A DNA stretch of 64,000 nucleotides from an uncultured Pseudomonadales bacterium (GTDB taxonomy: Bacteria; Patescibacteriota; Microgenomatia; UBA1400; MFAQ01): the NCBI GenBank assembly GCA_964513845.1, contig CAZENT010000001.1, positions 149,278 through 213,277 on the forward strand, given 5' to 3'. Of the stretch, positions 32,427 through 63,254 are shown one piece after another; position 1 is the stretch's first letter, and each line of letters opens with the position of its first letter. Both the position numbers and the translations under genes were made by a program. Under the pieces are notes generated by a model. The model saw nothing but the letters and a program-made list of their open reading frames with translations, was not told the DNA's origin and did not search any database.

Positions 32427-33347
32427 TTAGTTGCCAGTAAAAATATTCCAAGTGGAAGTTTTCCATTTATTACCTTCTCTGACAAACGATATTGATGTCA
32501 GTTTTCCATTAGGATCATTTTCTATATAAAATTTAATATCAAATTTAACTGGTTCAGTGTTGTAGAAATCTTCCTCTTCTTTCGCAGAATGGTATTCATT
32601 CAAAACTTCGAATGTTTTATATTGCGTATAGACAGTTCCTGGCCAGTCAATATTTTCAACTTGTTTTTGGGCAGATACTGTTAAAAATGACATTGCCTTA
32701 TTTCGATCATTGTTGATAATGCTTTCTGAGTAACCCTGAATAGCCTCACGTAATTGTGTCTTGTTGCTTGGTTGCGGAGATAAACTTATGTCTGCAAATT
32801 TGAAGGTGGAAATAAATTGAGTAAAGGTGGGTAAATCTAAACTCCCAACACCACAACCCGGTCCAAGACATTGAGAATAAGCAACCAACAAGTATTTGTT
32901 GTTGGATAAATTAAATTCTCTTTGCGTTTCAAACGTATTTCCTTTTGGCTTTCCTTCAAAGATTGTTCCTGTAACAATCTCCCCTAATTTAAGTGTAAAT
33001 TGAAATTCCTTGTCCTTTGATCTTGGATCAACCTCAAGTGTCCACATGTTGGGGTACTTGAAACTATAGCCATAGGTTGTATTTGTATAAGTTTTCCAGT
33101 CCGCAGTTACGTCGATGGTGGGGGTGGGAGTTTCAAGGCCAACAGAGGTAATGGCAACAGTTGGAGTTGGGGTAGCGATGGCTGTTGAACTTTCTGTCAT
33201 GGGGACAAATCGAGAGGCAAGAACACCAATGAGGATACCAAAAAGAATTAAGGCAATAACAATTAAAAAGGTTTTTAGAAAGCCTGATTTTTTAGACGAT
33301 AAGGGTGCTGCTGGTGCGGGAGGAAGTAATGGGGGTTGAGACTCCAT
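32427..33347 (-). CDS. Membrane-anchored protein with a Pro/Thr-rich linker and a C-terminal globular domain (hypothetical)
   Basis: TM helix FLKTFLIVIALILFGILIGVLA and a TPTPT linker. The track start at 33701 overlaps the upstream ATPase gene by 410 nt in another frame, so the start is uncertain; M119 at 33347 is one candidate. Confidence 0.4.
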   Translation of the reverse strand: MESQPPLLPPAPAAPLSSKKSGFLKTFLIVIALILFGILIGVLASRFVPMTESSTAIATPTPTVAITSVGLETPTPTIDVTADWKTYTNTTYGYSFKYPNMWTLEVDPRSKDKEFQFTLKLGEIVTGTIFEGKPKGNTFETQREFNLSNNKYLLVAYSQCLGPGCGVGSLDLPTFTQFISTFKFADISLSPQPSNKTQLREAIQGYSESIINNDRNKAMSFLTVSAQKQVENIDWPGTVYTQYKTFEVLNEYHSAKEEEDFYNTEPVKFDIKFYIENDPNGKLTSISFVREGNKWKTSTWNIFTGN

Positions 33348-36300
33348 CTGTGTCGTTACTGGGGTTGTCGTTTCCAGTTGGGATATTTCCTCCAGGGGCG
33401 GGTTCATCTTTGATTGTGGCAGGAAGACTGGCTCCGGGTTCATCGACTGGGGCTGGGAGGGAAACTCCTCTATCGGGGATAGAGAGGGATGAGTCTGGTC
33501 GGCTGACCAGTTCTCCGGCGGAGTGATCGTCTGGTTTGATGGTGCGGGAGGAAGAGTCAGATCCTGTGTTTGAAGAGAATCTTGAGGAAGACTGTCTTGA
33601 GGATCCGGTGTCTGATTTGGGTTCATTTTGGTTGTGGTGATTAATAACTTTTGTTTCTGATGCAAGAATGCCCTTTGTTTTAAGAATCTCAAGGGCAGCA
33701 CTGGTAATTCTTAACTTGCCTCCCTGGGACGAGGATTTGGCTAGCTCAAGAGCCTCAGTGAAACTTACCCATTTGAAATCATTATATTCTTCATCTGAAG
33801 GGAACTTCAAACTACTTGATGAGGAGGTGGCATAGAGAAAATAATAGGTTTTCCCCTTCATGGTGACAGAAACACCGGAGTCGGTTTTTAGATCTTTAAG
33901 TCCTTGTTTGTCTGGTGGAAACTCAATACGATCGACAGACACAAAAGTAGGCTTGAAACTGGTTTGTTTGACAAAATCTTGTCCTAGCTCTTCTGTCATT
34001 TCGCGTTTGAAAGCGTCCGTAAGAGTCTCTTTGTTGTCTACTCCCCCTTGAGGAAGCTGCCATAGATTGTGAATTTTGTGATAAACGAAAAGAATTTTGC
34101 CGGAATTTATGAAACAACCAACTACGCTGGGACGGAAACCTTCTTGACGGTCTTTGTCTAGATCTTCCACGTTTGGCTCTTTTGAGGCGTTGGTCGGAGA
34201 TTGCCGCGTCGCTTCGCTTCTCGCAATGACGGGAGTTGGTTGAGATACTGTTGAAGCGGGTTGATTGCTTGGCGAGGATTGCCGCGTCGGAGTATCTTCT
34301 CTTTTCTGAGATGGACTGGTGTGCGATGCCGTGGTTGAGGCAGATAATGAGGGGACCTGAGAAGGGTTTTGAGTACGAGTATCAGTTTGTGCAGGAAATG
34401 ATTGAGGCGTATACGGTTTGGGGGATGATTGTTGAGGGCGATATGGCGTAGCTTGGGAATACGATCGATCTTCACCCCGAGGTCCTTGAGGCTTAGATGA
34501 TGATCGATAGTCTTGTTTGGGAGGAGGTGCGCTGGGAGAATAGACTGAGGCTTGCGTCATGTCGAGAGCTTCGGTTTTGCGGTAGTACTGCTCTTCGCTC
34601 ATGGCGATAATTTTTTCGCGATTGCCATTTTTGTTTTCTGGGAGAGGGAGGGTGGTGGCAGCAAAAGGATTAGAAATGGAAGCGTTGACGGAAATTTTGA
34701 CGATGATTTGATATCTAGCTAACCCAACAAGATCATCTTGGGTATAAAAATTACCGAGCTCGTTCATCAGACGATTAGCATCGGCGGCGCCAACAACAAA
34801 ACTAATGAGGGTACCGGCGTTTCCAAAAATAGCATCTTGAATTTCTATGGGAAGCTGAGCGGTGTACTGGTTAGCAAGAATCAGGTTCAAACGATACTTA
34901 CGAGCCTCGGAGAGAATTTTGATAAAGGATGTGGTGGCAAAGTTCTGGAACTCATCAACATAAAGAAAGAAGTCTTTTCTTTCGCTTTCGGCCATGTTGG
35001 CACGATTCATGGCAGCAATTTGAATTTGAGAGATAAACATGGCACCCAGAAGAGCGGCGTTGTCTTCTCCAATTTTGCCCTGAGGTAGATTGAGGATGAT
35101 GATTTTGCCGCTATTCATCAAGTCTTCAAAATCAACCGTGGACTTGGGATGACTAATGATGTCACGAATTGTGGGTGAAGTGATGAATTGACCAACTTTG
35201 TTTAGAATAGGAGAAATAGCTTCGGACTGGAATTTTTCGGAATATTTGTCGTATTCATCGTGCCAGAAATTGTGAAGCACTGGATCTTGAACTGCGGCAA
35301 GATATTCTTCGCGCCAAGGTTTGTTGGTGAGAAGTCTGGGAACATCTAGAAGAGTGGCACCAGGCTTGGCTACCAAAGTGAGAAGGGTGTTTCTGAGAAT
35401 GTATTCCAAACGAGGACCCCAGGAGTTGCCGTAGAGTTTACTGAAAATGGACACGATACCGGAAGCAACTAGCTCGGCATAGGCTTGGTTTTTGACGTAA
35501 AGAGGGTTCAGGTGAAATGATTTACCAACAACAGAAGGATCAAGATAAGCAACGTCGTTAATTCTGTCTGCTGGGATGTAATCAAGAAGATGTTCGGCCG
35601 TGTCGCCGTGAGGATCAACGAGAGCCATGCCCTCTCCATGACGAATGTCACTAATAGCCATGTTGGCCAAAAGAGTGGATTTACCGGTACCGGATTTACC
35701 CAAAACGTAAACGTGACGACGGCGATCTTCCCCTTTTTTCATGCCAAAAGAAACCATGCGATTTTTGTATTCGGTTTTGGCAAAGAAATTAATTTCGTGC
35801 TTTTCTTCTTCAGACATGTCTTCGGCAATGGGAAGATTGGCTGGCGGTTCTCCACGCAGAGTTTTACCCCAAGCAATACCTTTGATGTTGGCAAGATTAA
35901 AGCCCGGAAGATGATAGATGGCGGCAATTTCGGCGTAGTTTAGATATTGATATTGATTTGAGTAACGAGCGGAACGATCAATGATCATTTCACGAAGTTT
36001 TTTGAGTGAGGTAGGGCTAACAACCTTGAGTCTAAAACTGTTGCCTTCAGACAAAGAATAGGTACCAAAGGCGGCCGAAATTTGAGAGATAAGCTGATTT
36101 GAAGAGGTAACGCTTGAGGAAACAGCAACCAGACGAATATCACAACCAAAAGCTTGATAAACGAGTTTCTTTTCAATAAAAGGCTTTTGGGTACTGGGCT
36201 GAGCCTTTACGCCCTCAGCGACAGGAGCGGGTTCTAATGACTTTCGAAGGGCTTTTTGCCAGTTTACTGGAGCAGCAAATAGACAGATTTGGATGACTGC

Positions 36301-36735
36301 AGCTTGGCCAGATGGAATCCTGGAAAGGCTACCCAAAATAGCGGTCATTTGATCAACTTTCTCGTCTTCAGTAACATTTATAGGAAGAGATGAGGGTGCA
36401 GAAAGAACCAACTGACCCATCTGAGGCTCTCCATGATTAAGCCAGTCGGCAAGATAATCCTTCATGGGGGTAATGAGAGCTGTGGGGTACTGAGCGGCAA
36501 TTTGAGAACGAACTAGATGCTCCAGACGCTCTGGACAAGCGATTACAAAATAGGTTGTTTGGTTGAGATTAGCTATCTCAAGAGTAATAGTTTCGTAGGT
36601 ATTGAGGAGCCTATCCATAAAACTAGCCTTGAGAGAAGACTTAATTGAAGCTAAAAACTCGACAAAAGCAGCTTGGCCCGTGAGCGAGTCTTTGGCAGGA
36701 CGAATCTGCAGTACCGAATATTTGGGCAAGGCCAT
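33292..36735 (-). CDS. FtsK/HerA/VirD4-superfamily P-loop ATPase (DUF87/TrwB-like) fused via a ~130-aa disordered linker to a canonical NUDIX hydrolase domain
   Basis: Walker A VYVLGKSGTGKSTLL plus ALVDPHGD; Walker B FFLYVDEFQNFAT; coupling-protein-like ARKYRLNLILANQYTAQL. S/P/Q/T-rich linker. Nudix box GGVDNKETLTDAFKREMTEELGQ (G-x5-E-x7-REUxEExGU). S-rich C-terminal tail. Confidence 0.75.
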   Translation of the reverse strand: MALPKYSVLQIRPAKDSLTGQAAFVEFLASIKSSLKASFMDRLLNTYETITLEIANLNQTTYFVIACPERLEHLVRSQIAAQYPTALITPMKDYLADWLNHGEPQMGQLVLSAPSSLPINVTEDEKVDQMTAILGSLSRIPSGQAAVIQICLFAAPVNWQKALRKSLEPAPVAEGVKAQPSTQKPFIEKKLVYQAFGCDIRLVAVSSSVTSSNQLISQISAAFGTYSLSEGNSFRLKVVSPTSLKKLREMIIDRSARYSNQYQYLNYAEIAAIYHLPGFNLANIKGIAWGKTLRGEPPANLPIAEDMSEEEKHEINFFAKTEYKNRMVSFGMKKGEDRRRHVYVLGKSGTGKSTLLANMAISDIRHGEGMALVDPHGDTAEHLLDYIPADRINDVAYLDPSVVGKSFHLNPLYVKNQAYAELVASGIVSIFSKLYGNSWGPRLEYILRNTLLTLVAKPGATLLDVPRLLTNKPWREEYLAAVQDPVLHNFWHDEYDKYSEKFQSEAISPILNKVGQFITSPTIRDIISHPKSTVDFEDLMNSGKIIILNLPQGKIGEDNAALLGAMFISQIQIAAMNRANMAESERKDFFLYVDEFQNFATTSFIKILSEARKYRLNLILANQYTAQLPIEIQDAIFGNAGTLISFVVGAADANRLMNELGNFYTQDDLVGLARYQIIVKISVNASISNPFAATTLPLPENKNGNREKIIAMSEEQYYRKTEALDMTQASVYSPSAPPPKQDYRSSSKPQGPRGEDRSYSQATPYRPQQSSPKPYTPQSFPAQTDTRTQNPSQVPSLSASTTASHTSPSQKREDTPTRQSSPSNQPASTVSQPTPVIARSEATRQSPTNASKEPNVEDLDKDRQEGFRPSVVGCFINSGKILFVYHKIHNLWQLPQGGVDNKETLTDAFKREMTEELGQDFVKQTSFKPTFVSVDRIEFPPDKQGLKDLKTDSGVSVTMKGKTYYFLYATSSSSSLKFPSDEEYNDFKWVSFTEALELAKSSSQGGKLRITSAALEILKTKGILASETKVINHHNQNEPKSDTGSSRQSSSRFSSNTGSDSSSRTIKPDDHSAGELVSRPDSSLSIPDRGVSLPAPVDEPGASLPATIKDEPAPGGNIPTGNDNPSNDTDGVSTPITSSRTSSTLIV

Positions 36736-36754: not shown

Positions 36755-37366
36755 CTAGATCGAAGCGGGAGCGGAAACGATGGTTTGGACCGGCTGTTTG
36801 GAGCCTGAATCGACTATCTTTATCTCGGAGAAAAGAACGTTTTCGATAATGAGACCTTTGTCGGCAAAGAGCTTGTTGAGCTCATCTTTAAGAGCGTTTT
36901 CGATTTTTGAGCGTTCGGCACCTATTTCGTCTGATTTGTATTGGCTAAAGCTGGATGAAATACGACTTCGAGAGTAAGGGCGAACAACTTTGGATATAAA
37001 GTTGTCTCCAATATTTTCCCAGAGCTCAGGAGCATTGGCTTTATCGAGCTTAAAAAGAATGGAGCCTTCGATGGAGATAGTTTTGTTGTCTTTGGTCATG
37101 GCAACAATAGGCTCATCCCCTAGTGACTCTTTTTGAGAAAGATCAAAGCCGTGACGGATGGTGTACTCAAGAATTTGAGCGTTGAAAAGTTTGGCAATCT
37201 GCCAAAAAGGGATTTTGAGGTGAAGTCCAGGTCCCCAGACACGCTTGAGAACACCTAAACCACGATCATAAACACAGGCAACATGTCCTGGAGGAACGGA
37301 TATAAAAAAACCGCCGACGATTTCGTCAACGAGGAAGGATACAACCAATTTATCAAAGTCTGCCAT
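36755..37366 (-). CDS. SPFH/band-7 (stomatin/prohibitin/HflC-like) domain protein
   Basis: VPPGHVACVYDRGLGVLKRVWGPGLHLKIPFWQ is typical of the SPFH N-terminus. Confidence 0.65.
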   Translation of the reverse strand: MADFDKLVVSFLVDEIVGGFFISVPPGHVACVYDRGLGVLKRVWGPGLHLKIPFWQIAKLFNAQILEYTIRHGFDLSQKESLGDEPIVAMTKDNKTISIEGSILFKLDKANAPELWENIGDNFISKVVRPYSRSRISSSFSQYKSDEIGAERSKIENALKDELNKLFADKGLIIENVLFSEIKIVDSGSKQPVQTIVSAPASI

Positions 37367-37377
37367 AGCTTCTTATA

Positions 37378-38184
37378 TTATATCGTCTTTTCAGGTGAAG
37401 TTGGGGTTGGCATGGGTGGAAGAGGTGTGTCTGAGGCTGGTTGGACTTCGGTGACTGGCTCGGGGGCGGCTTTTTTGGTGAAGGAGTAATAAAGATAGAG
37501 TGCTTGTTTGATAAGGCGAACCACCATGGTGAATGCGAGGGAGGTGATGATGTAGACTTTTTTGCCTGCCGGAAGGAACATAAAAATGACAAAACAGATG
37601 ATAGGAAAAATGATAACCAGAGAAACGAAGTCTTTTTGGCTCGGCTTGACTGGAGAAAAATATAGGTGCATGGCTTCGTTGGCGGCAATCATTAAACTCT
37701 GAATGATATTCAGGGAGTTGTTGGTGCGAGATAGGTCATAAATCCCAAGGAACATAAGATCGATGGGGGTTTGAATCTTAGGCATAAATTTATAGATCAG
37801 ATGAAGATCGGCACCCTCAAGACCGGTGGTAAAAATACGATAGAGCATGACGATAACGAGAGCCTGGAAAATAACGTTAAAAATCTCCGACAAAATAGCT
37901 CCCGGTTTTTGACGCATGATTCGGTTTGTCTCCGACTTGAGCTTGATGGGATCAGAGGCGAGCTCAGTTTTAAGTTGTTTGATTTGTTGGGAAATTTTGT
38001 ATTTGTCTTCGTCGGAGCGATCACCGATGGCATCGATGGGTAGAAAAATAATACGAACAGCTACGGCGAACAAAATCATGGCGATACCCATGTCCGGATT
38101 AGGAAAAATCTGACCAACTAACCAGTAAATACCAACGAGTAGATTAAAAAATGGTTGATAAAAATAAGTGGTAAAAATATCCAT
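37378..38184 (-). CDS. YidC/Oxa1-family membrane insertase (second, divergent paralog)
   Basis: GIAMILFAVAVRIIFLPI (the conserved TM2 R) and five TMs with a C-terminal Pro-rich tail. The canonical yidC is at 52106-52858. Confidence 0.6.
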   Translation of the reverse strand: MDIFTTYFYQPFFNLLVGIYWLVGQIFPNPDMGIAMILFAVAVRIIFLPIDAIGDRSDEDKYKISQQIKQLKTELASDPIKLKSETNRIMRQKPGAILSEIFNVIFQALVIVMLYRIFTTGLEGADLHLIYKFMPKIQTPIDLMFLGIYDLSRTNNSLNIIQSLMIAANEAMHLYFSPVKPSQKDFVSLVIIFPIICFVIFMFLPAGKKVYIITSLAFTMVVRLIKQALYLYYSFTKKAAPEPVTEVQPASDTPLPPMPTPTSPEKTI

Positions 38185-52105: not shown

Positions 52106-52858
52106 TTATTTTCCGGTCACACGAGTGACAAAAAGACGAGCTTTTTTGTAAGCCGGAATAAGACCACCCCAACCGGAGAAGAAGTATTGCTGAACGAGAG
52201 AGAAGACAGTAGAAATTACCCAGAAAAGAACAAGGCCAGATTGAAAGTTGAGGGAGATAATGACCGTCATGAGAGGCATCATGTAGATCATTTGCTGCTG
52301 CATACTGGAAGCCATTTCGAGGCTGTTTTCTTCTTTTTTCTTTTCTTCTTTCTTTTTGGGATTTTTTACTTCAGACACAATGCCTGATTGCATCATAAGA
52401 GAGAAAACGAGCTGAGAAACACCAGCGAGAATGGGCATGATGTAGGTTCGGTCTGGTTTGGTGAGATCGAGATACAGGAAATAGGGGTTCATGTTGGTTC
52501 CACCAACTGATGATTGCCCGAGGAAAAACATAAACACCTGGTAGAGAGAGATGAGGATGATGATTTGAAAAATTTGAGGAAGACAACCGGCGGCAGGATT
52601 AATACCTTTTTCTTTGTAGAGTGCGATCTGGGCTTGTTGAAGTGCAGTTTTGTCGGTGTGTTTGGCTTTAAGTCTGTCTAGCTCTGGTTTGAGATCCTGC
52701 ATTTTTTTGGCAGAGCGAAGGGAGGGGATAACTAATGGAAGAAGAATTACTTTGGTGATAAGCGTGATGGCGATAATGGAAAGACCAAGGTTGCCACCAA
52801 AGAGTTGGTAGAAAAACAAGAGAGCTTGGTAAAGGATTCCGTTTATTGGTGCGAGCAT
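52106..52858 (-). CDS. yidC: Membrane protein insertase YidC (short Gram-positive/CPR type)
   Basis: IITKVILLPLVIPSLRSAKKMQ and GCLPQIFQIIILISLY signatures. Confidence 0.9.
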   Translation of the reverse strand: MLAPINGILYQALLFFYQLFGGNLGLSIIAITLITKVILLPLVIPSLRSAKKMQDLKPELDRLKAKHTDKTALQQAQIALYKEKGINPAAGCLPQIFQIIILISLYQVFMFFLGQSSVGGTNMNPYFLYLDLTKPDRTYIMPILAGVSQLVFSLMMQSGIVSEVKNPKKKEEKKKEENSLEMASSMQQQMIYMMPLMTVIISLNFQSGLVLFWVISTVFSLVQQYFFSGWGGLIPAYKKARLFVTRVTGK

Positions 52859-57976: not shown

Positions 57977-60721
57977 TTATGGAACAACTGCCCACATTCG
58001 GAATAGTTTGTATGATGTATCAAGAGTGTGAATATAGTTTTCACCCATCCATGGATCCATAGTGGTTATTTGATTTCCTTCGTGGGCGACGATGACCAGA
58101 AGATGCCCACACCATCCTCCACCACAAGCCATATCACCTGTTGCTAAAATCATGCCACAGTTCGAGAGAACGCTGTCAGCTTCGGCAAGATCTGATCCGA
58201 TATCGGTAACTGAAAGTCCACTTTCGGAAAGAATTTTTAAAGAGTTAAAATTGTCTGACCCACAAGAAACGTAAGGTATTTTGCCATCATAGACACGTGG
58301 TGGAGAATTGCTATCCCAGTAAACATATCCTCCGATTGAGTGTTGCCAATGCCAGACATCAGTAACATTTGAAGTTACACCAAAGCCGTTTAAAATCATG
58401 GTCATAGAAGCACTACTACAACCTGATGACCCAATTCGACAACTGCCAGCTGGTGAACAGTTTTTACAAAAAACGCCTGCCCATTCGGGGTCTCTTTGTG
58501 AAATAAAAATTCCTTCGGTATTAGCACAACCTGTGGCAGAGGTACGAGTTTTTGGAATTGATTCGAGTTGAACAAGAGTAGAAATAAGGGGGGCGACAAC
58601 AATGGAAGAAACATAAAAGAAGAAACCTACAAGTACGCCTAAAACAAGAGTGCCCACAGCAGAACTGGCGGCGGTTGTTGTGGCGGAACCGATTCCGGAA
58701 AAAAATTTGGATACTGCTGAAACAGCACCAACAACAGGAACGATGAGAACATCTCTAGTTTTAATTTTTTCACCATAGACAGAAACAGCTACTTTTTGAA
58801 CGACATTGACAGTTCCTTTTATGACAGAGAGAATAATGTCTCCAACAAGCCAGATTATAGCAGGAATAGCACCAACTCCTGTTGCTGCAAGACCAAATTT
58901 TGCACCAATACTGACTGCCAGTTTGGATAGAGCTTTCCCAAGACCTTTTTTTGTAAGTTCGGTGGCGATTTTCGTTCCGGCTTTAATGGCTGCTTTTCCT
59001 GCCGTAGAAGAAAGAATTTTTTTAACAACATAGTCACCTACTTTTTTGCCAACCCACGATCTAACGGCACCAATAGGATCTTCAACTATTCGAAAAATAT
59101 TGCCAAAAACAACGGGGAATTTGTCAGATATTTTTGAGAAAAATTTTGTGACAGGTTGAGTTAATTTTGTCCAACCAGTGATAATTTTATTAATATTTTT
59201 TCCTATAGGAGTGTTTGCGAATTTTCCAAGCACAACAGGCACTTTGGTGATTTCTTTTCCTAAAGGTGAGTTGGCAATTCTTCTGATCTGAGTGCCGGCT
59301 GCATCAAATAAATCCTTATTGGATTTGAAAAGTTTACCAAGTTCTGATTCGGGATTGTTTTTTGCGTAGAGACGGGCTTTGGCAAGTAAGGTTGGGGTGA
59401 GCCCTTTGCCGTATAAAAGGATAGCTTGGGGAGAAAGATCGGGATCTTGAGTTTTGGAATTAGTTACTAAAGCAGCGGACATCTCGGCTTGATAGCCGGC
59501 GTGAGCATTTAGCTCTCCAGGCATGTTGTGACGAATCGCTGCTTCTAGAAGCGCTGCGTCGTCGAGAGAAGAAAATAGGCGCGGCTGAACACCATTGTTT
59601 TCGAGATTGGAATGAATGGAGATAAAGACATTGTTGGCGAGCTCAATTCGATCGAGAGTGTCAGGGTCTTTTGATAGTCTTGTTTGACTGTCTTTATTAA
59701 ATTCTTGAAAAGCGACAGCTTGATTGTCAACAAAGACATCGAGTTGTTTGGGAAGATTTTCTATTTTTTGAGCAAGTTTTTGATTTGTTTCGGTGAGAGT
59801 TTTAATCTGAATAAGTTTGATTTCCAGATCTACGACTATATTTTGTTTGACTTCTTCTGCGTATTTTAAGAGAATAATTTCGTTTTCAGCAATTTGAGCA
59901 GTTAGGGTGGCTGCTTGTGTGGTTTGAGTATTGACCGCGTCGTAGACAGAGTGAACAAAATTTGAAGAAATTTTAGATAGATTTTTTTGATCTTCGGCTG
60001 ATAAATCTGAGATGTTAATCAATAGTGAGGCGGATTGAATGGCAACATCAATATTGGTAACACAAATGGAGTTTAGCTCCACAGCCTCTTCGATGATTCT
60101 GTTTTGCGCTTCTACAGATAACTTTAAAAAGCTTTCATGAGTAAGAGCAACTTCTCTCACTGCTGCGTAAGAAGCAGCTAAAGCAGTTTTTTTTGAGTCT
60201 GATTTTGGAGAACCAAGCGAGATTAATACTTTATCTGCGTCTTGAAACTTTTCTCCTCTGGCTTGTCTTTTTTGTTTGTTAAGAAGAGCTTTTTGCTTTA
60301 TCTTTGAATGGGCAATAGCTATTTTGACCTGTTCGGCAACCGATCTCTGAGAGTTTGATTTTATCTCTTCGCTTTCGAGAAGGGCTTTGTTTTTCTCGTA
60401 CTCAGCAACTAAAGACTCGAGTTCTGGGGGAATGGAGGCTTCGGGTTTTGTTTCCTCTTCTTCGTTAAGAGAATTGAGTTTAATTATTAGCTTTTCGATT
60501 TCACCTGAGCCGGCAATATATTTTTGAAAAGAGTAGACGTCGATTATTCTAGGATCAATACGATCATCAGGGAAAAATTTAGGCCAGTATCCTTCATACA
60601 ACGAATAAGCTTTGTTTAGAATTTTTAAAATTCTAGAATTTAGTTTGTCTTCTGAAACAGCCAAATACGAAAGAGAGTTCTTTAGATCCTTAATGTCTTG
60701 CGAATAATCATTTTTTGCCAT
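57977..60721 (-). CDS. T4SS-associated membrane protein with a C-terminal papain-like cysteine peptidase domain (C39-like/CHAP-like); PrgK/TcpG-type cell-wall hydrolase analog
   Basis: Coiled-coil N-domain (~560 aa), amphipathic Lys-rich repeats, 2 or more TMs near residues 600-700, and a C-terminal domain with candidate catalytic Cys (GSSGCSSASMTMIL) and His (GGWCGHLLVIVAHEG). Confidence 0.5.
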   Translation of the reverse strand: MAKNDYSQDIKDLKNSLSYLAVSEDKLNSRILKILNKAYSLYEGYWPKFFPDDRIDPRIIDVYSFQKYIAGSGEIEKLIIKLNSLNEEEETKPEASIPPELESLVAEYEKNKALLESEEIKSNSQRSVAEQVKIAIAHSKIKQKALLNKQKRQARGEKFQDADKVLISLGSPKSDSKKTALAASYAAVREVALTHESFLKLSVEAQNRIIEEAVELNSICVTNIDVAIQSASLLINISDLSAEDQKNLSKISSNFVHSVYDAVNTQTTQAATLTAQIAENEIILLKYAEEVKQNIVVDLEIKLIQIKTLTETNQKLAQKIENLPKQLDVFVDNQAVAFQEFNKDSQTRLSKDPDTLDRIELANNVFISIHSNLENNGVQPRLFSSLDDAALLEAAIRHNMPGELNAHAGYQAEMSAALVTNSKTQDPDLSPQAILLYGKGLTPTLLAKARLYAKNNPESELGKLFKSNKDLFDAAGTQIRRIANSPLGKEITKVPVVLGKFANTPIGKNINKIITGWTKLTQPVTKFFSKISDKFPVVFGNIFRIVEDPIGAVRSWVGKKVGDYVVKKILSSTAGKAAIKAGTKIATELTKKGLGKALSKLAVSIGAKFGLAATGVGAIPAIIWLVGDIILSVIKGTVNVVQKVAVSVYGEKIKTRDVLIVPVVGAVSAVSKFFSGIGSATTTAASSAVGTLVLGVLVGFFFYVSSIVVAPLISTLVQLESIPKTRTSATGCANTEGIFISQRDPEWAGVFCKNCSPAGSCRIGSSGCSSASMTMILNGFGVTSNVTDVWHWQHSIGGYVYWDSNSPPRVYDGKIPYVSCGSDNFNSLKILSESGLSVTDIGSDLAEADSVLSNCGMILATGDMACGGGWCGHLLVIVAHEGNQITTMDPWMGENYIHTLDTSYKLFRMWAVVP

Positions 60722-60726
60722 ATCAG

Positions 60727-62574
60727 TTACAAAGATTCTGCTTGTTGTTTGCGTGCTTCGAGTACTTCTGAAGGCTTGGTAGTGGAAAGAGCGTGTTCGT
60801 CTGGGGAGGAGATTACTTTGATGGCAACATGATTTTGTCCGGCAAAGAAAATACCTTCTCCGACACCGGCTGAAACTAAAAGTTGTTTTTCTCCTTGGGA
60901 GAGATAGAAAACTTCGGCTATTTGATTGATAGCGGCTGAAGATTGTTTGAGAAGGAATTTGAGGGCAGAGTTGGTAATGATGGCTTTACCATAGGGAGAG
61001 GCTAAAAAGTCGTCAACGTTTTGAGAGATGACAGTAACACCAAGATAGTATTTACGGGCACGCTTGACAAAACCTTGGAGAATCTTGGCAGAGTCTTCGT
61101 AGCGCATAAGATACCAGGCCTCATCTACAATGAGCATGCGTTTACGAAGATTTTTGCGTATTTCTGTCCAGACAAAGTCAAGAATCATAAACATAACGAT
61201 AGGACGAATCTCATCAGCAAGATCGCGCATGGAAAAAACTGTAATAGGAGCATCGATATCGATATTTGATTGCTGATCGAAAGTGCCTTTGATACCGCCC
61301 ATGACGTATCGCTCTAGTCTGGCAGCTAGTACCTTGGCTGTTTGATCTTCCATACCGATGATGGCACGGTAAAGATCTTCCATACGAGGAGGTTCTTGGG
61401 TGTGTGTGGCAGGATCATCAGTGATGTTTTTCTGACGATAGGTGAGAACGAGGGCGCGATTCATGGTGGCCTCTTCCATGGGGGACATGGCACCAATCAT
61501 GATTTTAAGTAAGGAAATGAGGAAAAGATATTTGTAGCCCATTTCATCTTCAGTGCTTTCTAAAGGCCTCGCAATTTGAAACGGATTAATTTTGTGGGGA
61601 GAGTTGGCAGAAAAAGAAATGTAGTTTCCGCCTACGGCTTTGGTGACCATTTCATATTCGTTTTCCGGATCGAGAATGATGATTTGGGTGTCAAACATTA
61701 AAGAGCGAAGAATTTCTAGCTTAACGGCATAGGACTTACCGGCACCGGCTGTGGCCAGAACGAGCATGTTGGCGTTTTCGAGAGAGAAACGATCGAAAAT
61801 AATGAGAGAGTCGTTGTGAGCATTGATTCCGTAAAGAATACCTTGGTTGTCTGAAAGTTCGGAGCTAGTGAAGGGAAAGGTGGTGGATAGAGCAGTTGTG
61901 TCCATGTTTCTTGTGATCATCAGCTTGTCTTTGCAGTATGGAAGAGTAGTTTTGAAGGCATCCTCCATAGAGAGTGAGGCGACTTTGCTGATAATGAGCA
62001 GAGAAGCGAGCATGCTTTGAACCTGAGAAGTGACAGTGTTGAGCTCTTTTTCGGACTCGGCAGAGATACTGATGTAAAGAGAAAACTGGAAAAAGCGTTC
62101 GGCACCTTTGACTAGCTGTGCCTGAAGTGTTTTAGCGTCTTCTAAAGCCGCTTCGGTGGCGGCTTGGGGAATACGACCTCTTTCGATGTCAGTGTTAATC
62201 TCGGCTTCCATTTCGGCCAGGCGACGCCTGAGGCTATCAAGAGTGTCTTTGGAGTCACTAGGATAGATGTACATGGAGATATCAAGAGAGTGATTGAAGT
62301 TTACGAGAGGAGCAAGCCAGTTGGCGGAAACATAACGAGGGTAACCAGTGACAAAAAGAGTGCGAATGTAGTTGTCGTCAATCTTGATAAAAGAAAAATC
62401 AACTTCGATGGAGGAGGGAGCTAAAACATCTTGAATTGAAGCGGCGTTGGTAGTGTCTTTGATGGCCGAAAGAGGAGCTCTGGGCTTTTCTTCAGTTGAT
62501 GTGACAGGAGCCGCCGAGACAACGGGTGGTGTTTCGGTCTTTTTGGCACCAAGAGAAAAGAGATTTAACCCCAT
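60727..62574 (-). CDS. virB4: VirB4/TrbE/CagE-family T4SS ATPase (C-terminal about three quarters)
   Basis: CagE_TrbE_VirB region (YIRTLFVTGYPRYV), Walker A LATAGAGKSY, Walker B MLIVDEAWYLM, and DPENEYEM. Confidence 0.8.
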   Translation of the reverse strand: MGLNLFSLGAKKTETPPVVSAAPVTSTEEKPRAPLSAIKDTTNAASIQDVLAPSSIEVDFSFIKIDDNYIRTLFVTGYPRYVSANWLAPLVNFNHSLDISMYIYPSDSKDTLDSLRRRLAEMEAEINTDIERGRIPQAATEAALEDAKTLQAQLVKGAERFFQFSLYISISAESEKELNTVTSQVQSMLASLLIISKVASLSMEDAFKTTLPYCKDKLMITRNMDTTALSTTFPFTSSELSDNQGILYGINAHNDSLIIFDRFSLENANMLVLATAGAGKSYAVKLEILRSLMFDTQIIILDPENEYEMVTKAVGGNYISFSANSPHKINPFQIARPLESTEDEMGYKYLFLISLLKIMIGAMSPMEEATMNRALVLTYRQKNITDDPATHTQEPPRMEDLYRAIIGMEDQTAKVLAARLERYVMGGIKGTFDQQSNIDIDAPITVFSMRDLADEIRPIVMFMILDFVWTEIRKNLRKRMLIVDEAWYLMRYEDSAKILQGFVKRARKYYLGVTVISQNVDDFLASPYGKAIITNSALKFLLKQSSAAINQIAEVFYLSQGEKQLLVSAGVGEGIFFAGQNHVAIKVISSPDEHALSTTKPSEVLEARKQQAESL

Positions 62575-62597: not shown

Positions 62598-63254
62598 TTA
62601 TTTAGGGATTAAAGAAGGGTTGATTTGAGCTGGGCTGAGTGTGGTTGAGCCTTGGTTGTAGATAGTGTAGAAAAAAGTAACAAGATCGCTGGTTGTTAGT
62701 TGGGAAGCTTTGAGCCCTAAACGAGCAAACTGTCGAATTAAATGATCGCGACGAGGATAGAGAACAGTAGAAGCTTTTTCTTCGATATACACCAGGTCAA
62801 AAGGAGGTTTTTGAGGAGCTTTGGCAAAAGGATTGAAGTTGGATTTGGACAGGCCAAGTTCGATAGCTGAAAAAGGAATAATCACATAAAACTTTTTTTC
62901 CAAAACACGGTTTTCTTTGACAAGGGATTTGACAAACTGGCGATAAGCCAGAAGCTGTTCCTTAATTTTTTGGGAAGAGACAGACTGAATACGGGTATCG
63001 ATGAGATTGAGGTAGTCGGAAATATTTTTTCTCTGGGAACGGATAAGGATTTGAACAGGGAAAGAAAGAGAGTTTAGAAGGCCAGCGTAGGCATAAATCG
63101 TAGCATCTTGTTCCTCTTCTGAGAGAAGATTGAAGTTGATGGCGGTGGTTTTGAGAACCAAGGCGGCTGAACCATCTTTGAGAAAAACGAGATGATCTTT
63201 GATGGCATAGATATCGAGATGTTCTTGGGTAGAGGCTTTGATGTTGTCGGGCAT
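62598..63254 (-). CDS. VirB4 N-terminal domain encoded as a separate ORF (split VirB4), or a frameshifted pseudogene fragment
   Basis: IKDHLVFLKDGSAALVLKTTAINFNLLSEEEQDATIYAYAGLLNSLSFPVQILIRSQRK matches the VirB4 extreme N-terminal region. It ends 23 nt before the VirB4 ATPase ORF, in a different frame. Confidence 0.5.
   Translation of the reverse strand: MPDNIKASTQEHLDIYAIKDHLVFLKDGSAALVLKTTAINFNLLSEEEQDATIYAYAGLLNSLSFPVQILIRSQRKNISDYLNLIDTRIQSVSSQKIKEQLLAYRQFVKSLVKENRVLEKKFYVIIPFSAIELGLSKSNFNPFAKAPQKPPFDLVYIEEKASTVLYPRRDHLIRQFARLGLKASQLTTSDLVTFFYTIYNQGSTTLSPAQINPSLIPK

What the first reader, a model, noticed from the sequence alone, without database searches (positions are those of the whole stretch)
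33292..36735. P-loop ATPase of the FtsK/HerA/VirD4 superfamily fused to a canonical NUDIX hydrolase domain
A single 1147-aa ORF combines an N-terminal ~330-aa domain of unknown type, a DUF87/TrwB-like ATPase, a ~130-aa Ser/Pro/Gln-rich disordered linker, and a textbook Nudix box followed by a Ser-rich tail. The ATPase has Walker A GKSGTGKST, the ALVDPHGD motif, Walker B YVDEFQNF, and a VirD4/HerA-like RKYRLNLILANQYTAQL. The Nudix box is GGVDNKETLTDAFKREMTEELGQ. I know of no described architecture that physically links a translocase-type ATPase to a Nudix hydrolase. It invites an analogy to SIR2-HerA / DUF4297-HerA defence modules, in which a HerA-like ATPase partners with an NAD-consuming effector; Nudix domains hydrolyse NAD/ADP-ribose-type dinucleotides. 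Alternatively it could be a T4SS coupling-protein variant, given the VirB4 cluster 21 kb away, with the Nudix domain processing a nucleotide signal or a substrate 5' cap-like end.
Basis: partly seen in the sequence, partly recalled or inferred. Interest (0 to 1): 0.85.

Follow-up and report, generated by a model that had tools for sequence, protein, structure and literature searches.

The report
Coupling-protein-like ATPase fused to RppH-type Nudix
A candidate-phyla-radiation bacterium (Collierbacteria group) encodes one real 1147-residue protein that joins a type IV secretion coupling-protein-like motor ATPase to an RNA-pyrophosphohydrolase-type Nudix enzyme, a conserved lineage-specific fusion that hints the orphan motor handles RNA or nucleotides and is not a defence system.

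Summary
The ORF (33292-36735, minus strand) is real and uninterrupted, and more than 100 independent assemblies keep the same architecture in frame.

- **ATPase.** By fold and family profiles it belongs to the VirD4/TrwB coupling-protein (T4CP) clade, not HerA. It has a seven-helix insert but no membrane helix.
- **N-terminal 310 residues.** These are the CPR-specific DUF8128 domain, with no detectable relative.
- **Nudix domain.** It is closest to E. coli RppH/NudH and to Ap4A hydrolases. Metal ligands and phosphate-binding residues are conserved, which points to 5'-polyphosphate RNA ends or Np4N as substrates rather than NAD or ADP-ribose.
- **Origin of the fusion.** Stand-alone orthologues (44-52% identity) occur across other CPR classes in housekeeping contexts, never beside a T4CP-like gene. 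No assembly showed both a fused and a stand-alone copy.
- **Context.** The gene sits in a conserved housekeeping array (SBP, NTase-like, YidC-like, Band7, this gene, then groESL), 24 kb from the oriC-proximal TrsD-VirB4 locus.
- **Swapped heads.** Orthologues at the same locus carry an S1 RNA-binding domain or nothing. More distant relatives carry a CxxC-x17-CxxC zinc ribbon.

My best reading is a T4CP-derived motor with an exchangeable, flexibly tethered nucleic-acid-end-binding head. The defence analogy is not supported. This is a new variant of a known kind, of moderate interest.

The parts
33292..36735 (-). Whole gene: DUF8128 + T4CP-like ATPase + disordered linker + RppH/NudH-type Nudix + Ser-rich tail (1147 aa plus stop)
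35806..36735 (-). N-terminal alpha/beta domain, aa 1-310 (Pfam PF26449, DUF8128); no transmembrane helix
   Evidence: PF26449 is precomputed on the homologues. The model has pLDDT mostly 80-94. The maximum 19-residue hydropathy is 1.37. A PDB profile search found nothing at E<=10. hhalign against TrsD and VirB4 was not significant.
34576..35805 (-). T4CP-like nucleotide-binding domain, aa 311-720
35674..35700 (-). Walker A, GKSGTGKST (aa 346-354)
   Evidence: G346, K347, S348, G349, T350, G351, K352 and T354 are invariant in alignments A1 and A2.
35155..35487 (-). Seven-helix insert in the ATPase (aa 417-527), in the position of the TrwB all-alpha domain
   Evidence: Helices H417-438, 441-455, 462-470, 472-479, 485-497, 500-518 and 521-527 in the model. 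363 of 420 TrwB residues aligned. TrwB_AAD_bind matches 57 of 58 relatives.
34939..34971 (-). Walker B, FFLYVDEFQNF (aa 589-599)
   Evidence: residues 591-601 are invariant.
34852..34902 (-). Conserved RKYRLNLILANQYTAQL motif (aa 612-628), within the stretch matched by TraG-D_C
34171..34575 (-). Ser/Pro/Gln/Thr-rich low-complexity linker (aa 721-855), variable in length among homologues
   Evidence: Composition. The start of the Nudix domain varies by more than 200 residues among homologues.
33691..34170 (-). RppH/NudH-type Nudix domain (aa 856-1015), including its N-terminal helix
33979..34047 (-). Nudix box, GGVDNKETLTDAFKREMTEELGQ (aa 897-919)
   Evidence: The equivalents of E53/E57/E120 are conserved in 110-114 of 119 fused proteins.
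33295..33690 (-). Ser-rich C-terminal tail (aa 1016-1147), ending in the conserved terminal peptide TLIV (33295-33306)
   Evidence: A median ~98-residue tail follows the Nudix domain across the fused homologues. 19 homologues, all among the 31 highest-scoring, end in [ST]L[VI][VI].
36755..37366 (-). Upstream neighbour, 19 nt away: SPFH/Band 7 protein with one N-terminal TM helix (conserved neighbour)
37378..38184 (-). Divergent YidC-like insertase (conserved neighbour; a second, canonical YidC is at 52106-52858)
32427..33347 (-). Downstream single-TM, low-complexity protein. Its start is uncertain, and the ORF as listed overlaps the tail of the ATPase gene.
   Evidence: This slot is variable in related loci.

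Best explanation
**Shown.** The gene encodes a chromosomal, vertically inherited, four-part protein of the Collierbacteria group (CPR/Patescibacteria).
1. A CPR-specific alpha/beta N-domain (DUF8128).
2. A catalytically intact P-loop motor of the VirD4/TrwB coupling-protein clade, with an all-alpha insert but no membrane helix.
3. A ~135-residue disordered tether.
4. A Nudix domain orthologous to a stand-alone CPR enzyme of the RppH/NudH-Ap4A-hydrolase subfamily, with its metal ligands and phosphate-binding residues intact.

**Inferred.**
- The motor assembles as a ring like other T4CPs.
- Its C-terminal position is the substrate- or adaptor-docking position of T4CPs. I recall this from the TraD tail binding TraM and the DotL tail binding its adaptors.
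- In this family the position is an exchangeable slot for small nucleic-acid-related heads: RppH-type Nudix here, a PNPase-like S1 domain in same-locus orthologues, and a CxxC-x17-CxxC zinc ribbon in distant relatives.

**Proposed mechanism.** The tethered Nudix heads bind and hydrolyse a 5'-polyphosphate end. Candidates are ppp/pp-RNA, Np4-capped RNA or free Np4N. This happens next to the ATP-driven ring, so end recognition or deprotection is coupled to whatever strand or nucleotide cargo the motor handles. Because the stand-alone orthologue appears to be absent where the fusion exists, the fused domain probably also carries the cell's housekeeping RppH/NudH activity.

Whether the motor still serves the oriC-proximal TrsD-VirB4 secretion system or has been exapted is not resolved.
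For: - **ORF and motifs.**
- **Fusion conserved.** 103 of 120 close homologues and 14 complete open frames in species genomes carry it.
- **T4CP family profiles.** Among 58 relatives, TrwB_AAD_bind matches 57, TraG-D_C 52 and T4SS-DNA_transf 28. NCBIfam best matches are VirD4-like CD1115 and TraD.
- **ATPase motifs.** Walker A and B are invariant across 22-28 sequences.
- **RppH functional residues.** The residues reported in PMC7144940 have conserved equivalents in 119 fused proteins: R868, 117; Q896, 118; E912, 112; E916, 110; E983, 114; F939, 117; K/R1007, 117.
- **Stand-alone orthologues.** They share 44-52% identity over the whole domain and lie in unrelated housekeeping contexts. No assembly carried both forms.
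- **Same-locus swap.** The P0113 orthologue carries S1 instead of Nudix. The S1 domain of P0121, a more distant S1-type relative, is most like the PNPase and ribosomal S1 domains.
- **Zinc ribbon.** Found in 10-15 of 58 distant relatives.
- **Literature.** Patescibacteria encode 5,713 VirD4-type T4CP homologues, only 148 near virB4. The Southlakia t4cp is not essential although other T4SS genes are, and the authors raise exaptation (PMC12102498).
Against: - No biochemical data exist for any member.
- The second-nucleotide cleft residues of EcRppH (R27, V137, F139, S32) are not conserved, so RNA is not proven as substrate.
- Stand-alone Nudix genes are never neighbours of the ATPase in other CPR. 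There is therefore no independent genomic link before the fusion.
- The Nudix head was apparently lost or degraded in some lineages (P0104-P0110, P0092). Coupling is therefore not indispensable to the motor.
- The function of the zinc ribbon is unknown, and my attempt to find its domain partners failed.
- The 'no assembly with both forms' result rests on one exact peptide pattern (LWQLPQGG) and on incomplete MAGs.
Confidence: 0.45

Rival explanations
1. It is a bona fide coupling protein of the oriC-proximal Patescibacteria T4SS (TrsD-like 62598-63254, VirB4 60727-62574, large protein 57977-60721). It is encoded away from the cluster, as T4CP genes often are. The Nudix head processes or recognises the secreted or imported substrate, for example relaxase-free nucleic acid or nucleotides scavenged from the host.
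For: - The fold and family profiles are T4CP.
- A T4SS locus lies in the same window.
- T4CP genes are commonly distant from virB4 (PMC12102498).
- Many distant relatives keep an N-terminal TM helix, like true T4CPs.
- The C-terminal head sits where T4CPs dock substrates.
Against: - This protein and its close homologues have no TM helix.
- The gene is embedded in a conserved housekeeping array rather than with T4SS genes.
- In the one genetically tested CPR bacterium the t4cp was dispensable for epibiotic growth, whereas the T4SS genes were not (PMC12102498).
- No relaxase or adaptor gene lies nearby.
Confidence: 0.25
2. The fusion is neutral. A housekeeping RppH/NudH gene happened to become fused to the 3' end of an unrelated ATPase gene in a streamlined genome. 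The long disordered tether lets it work as an independent enzyme, so the juxtaposition has no mechanistic meaning.
For: - Stand-alone orthologues are housekeeping-like and are never linked to the ATPase elsewhere.
- The linker is long, low-complexity and highly variable.
- The Nudix head was lost or degraded in several sublineages without loss of the ATPase.
Against: - The fusion has persisted across a clade whose Nudix domains have diverged to ~45% identity.
- The same C-terminal slot independently carries S1 or a zinc ribbon in orthologues and relatives. This pattern argues for a functional slot.
- The tail after the Nudix domain keeps a conserved terminal peptide.
Confidence: 0.22
3. It is an anti-phage defence module analogous to SIR2-HerA, DUF4297-HerA or MADS. 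On this reading a HerA-like ATPase senses infection and the Nudix domain depletes NAD or ADP-ribose-type nucleotides.
For: - PADLOC mad8 matches at E=1.1e-17 over aa 331-665, and generic HerA models match weakly.
Against: - T4CPs score higher than HerA.
- There is no Pfam hit to a HerA N-terminal barrel.
- NCBIfam HerA_antiphage scores 13.9 bits against a cut-off of 800.
- The neighbours are SBP, YidC-like, Band7, groESL, TsaD and PGK, with synteny kept to ~57% identity. Such stable synteny with core genes is not what I would expect of a mobile defence island.
- No other mad genes, nuclease, Sir2 or methyltransferase lies nearby.
- The Nudix is RppH/Ap4A-type, not NADH- or ADPR-type.
Confidence: 0.04
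4. It is an artefact: two adjacent genes joined by a sequencing or assembly frameshift or by a lost stop codon.
For: - The low-complexity linker and tail are the kind of sequence where indels arise.
- An overlapping ORF exists at the 3' end.
Against: - More than 100 independent assemblies from different projects keep both domains in one frame, despite linker lengths that differ by more than 200 residues.
- The terminal [ST]L[VI][VI] peptide is conserved at the very end of the tail.
Confidence: 0.01

Closest known systems
VirD4/TrwB/Cagbeta/DotL type IV coupling proteins (T4CP)
   Same: - RecA-like nucleotide-binding domain with Walker A and B motifs.
- A helical (all-alpha) insert.
- Family-wide Pfam matches to TrwB_AAD_bind, TraG-D_C and T4SS-DNA_transf.
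- A C-terminal extension in the position used by T4CPs for substrate or adaptor docking (the comparison to TraD and DotL is from my own knowledge).
   Different: - No transmembrane anchor in this protein.
- A 310-residue DUF8128 domain instead.
- Not encoded with T4SS or relaxase genes.
- Below all curated T4CP model cut-offs.
- Carries an enzyme (Nudix) rather than a docking peptide.
Orphan VirD4-type T4CP homologues of Patescibacteria (Quinonero-Coronel et al. 2025, PMC12102498)
   Same: - Same phylum-level group.
- The same pattern of T4CP-like genes located away from the oriC-proximal virB4 cluster.
- The paper itself raises exaptation.
- This window reproduces the reported arrangement of T4SS genes next to dnaA.
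   Different: - The main text never mentions Nudix (0 occurrences), so it does not report the Nudix fusion. I did not search the paper for S1, zinc-ribbon heads, DUF8128 or a missing membrane anchor.
- Whether this DUF8128 subfamily is among their 5,713 hits was not checked.
E. coli RppH (NudH/YgdP) and plant-type Ap4A hydrolases
   Same: - Best sequence and fold matches for the Nudix domain.
- Shared N-terminal (Y/F)RPxV motif, WQ(F/L)PQGG, a full Nudix box and the E120 equivalent.
- Equivalents of the phosphate-binding residues R8, Q37, Y77 (Phe here) and K140.
   Different: - Only ~20-25% identity.
- Below the NCBIfam RppH equivalog cut-offs (43 bits against 116-259).
- The base-binding residues R27, S32, V137 and F139 are not conserved.
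- Fused to a motor ATPase instead of free-standing.
Pif Nudix hydrolase of actinomycete integrative conjugative elements (pSAM2) together with FtsK-like TraSA/TraB translocases
   Same: This is the one documented functional association between a Nudix hydrolase and a conjugative FtsK/HerA-superfamily DNA translocation system. Pif confers conjugal immunity, and Nudix genes are common on AICEs (PMC3218068).
   Different: - Separate genes on mobile elements.
- The mechanism is unknown.
- The translocase is FtsK-like, not T4CP-like.
- The present gene is chromosomal, housekeeping-linked and not on a mobile element. Homology to Pif was not tested.
HerA-effector defence systems (SIR2-HerA/Nezha, DUF4297-HerA) and MADS Mad8
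   Different: - T4CPs score better.
- No HerA N-terminal barrel was detected.
- No partner effector gene.
- Housekeeping synteny.
- The Nudix is of RppH type.

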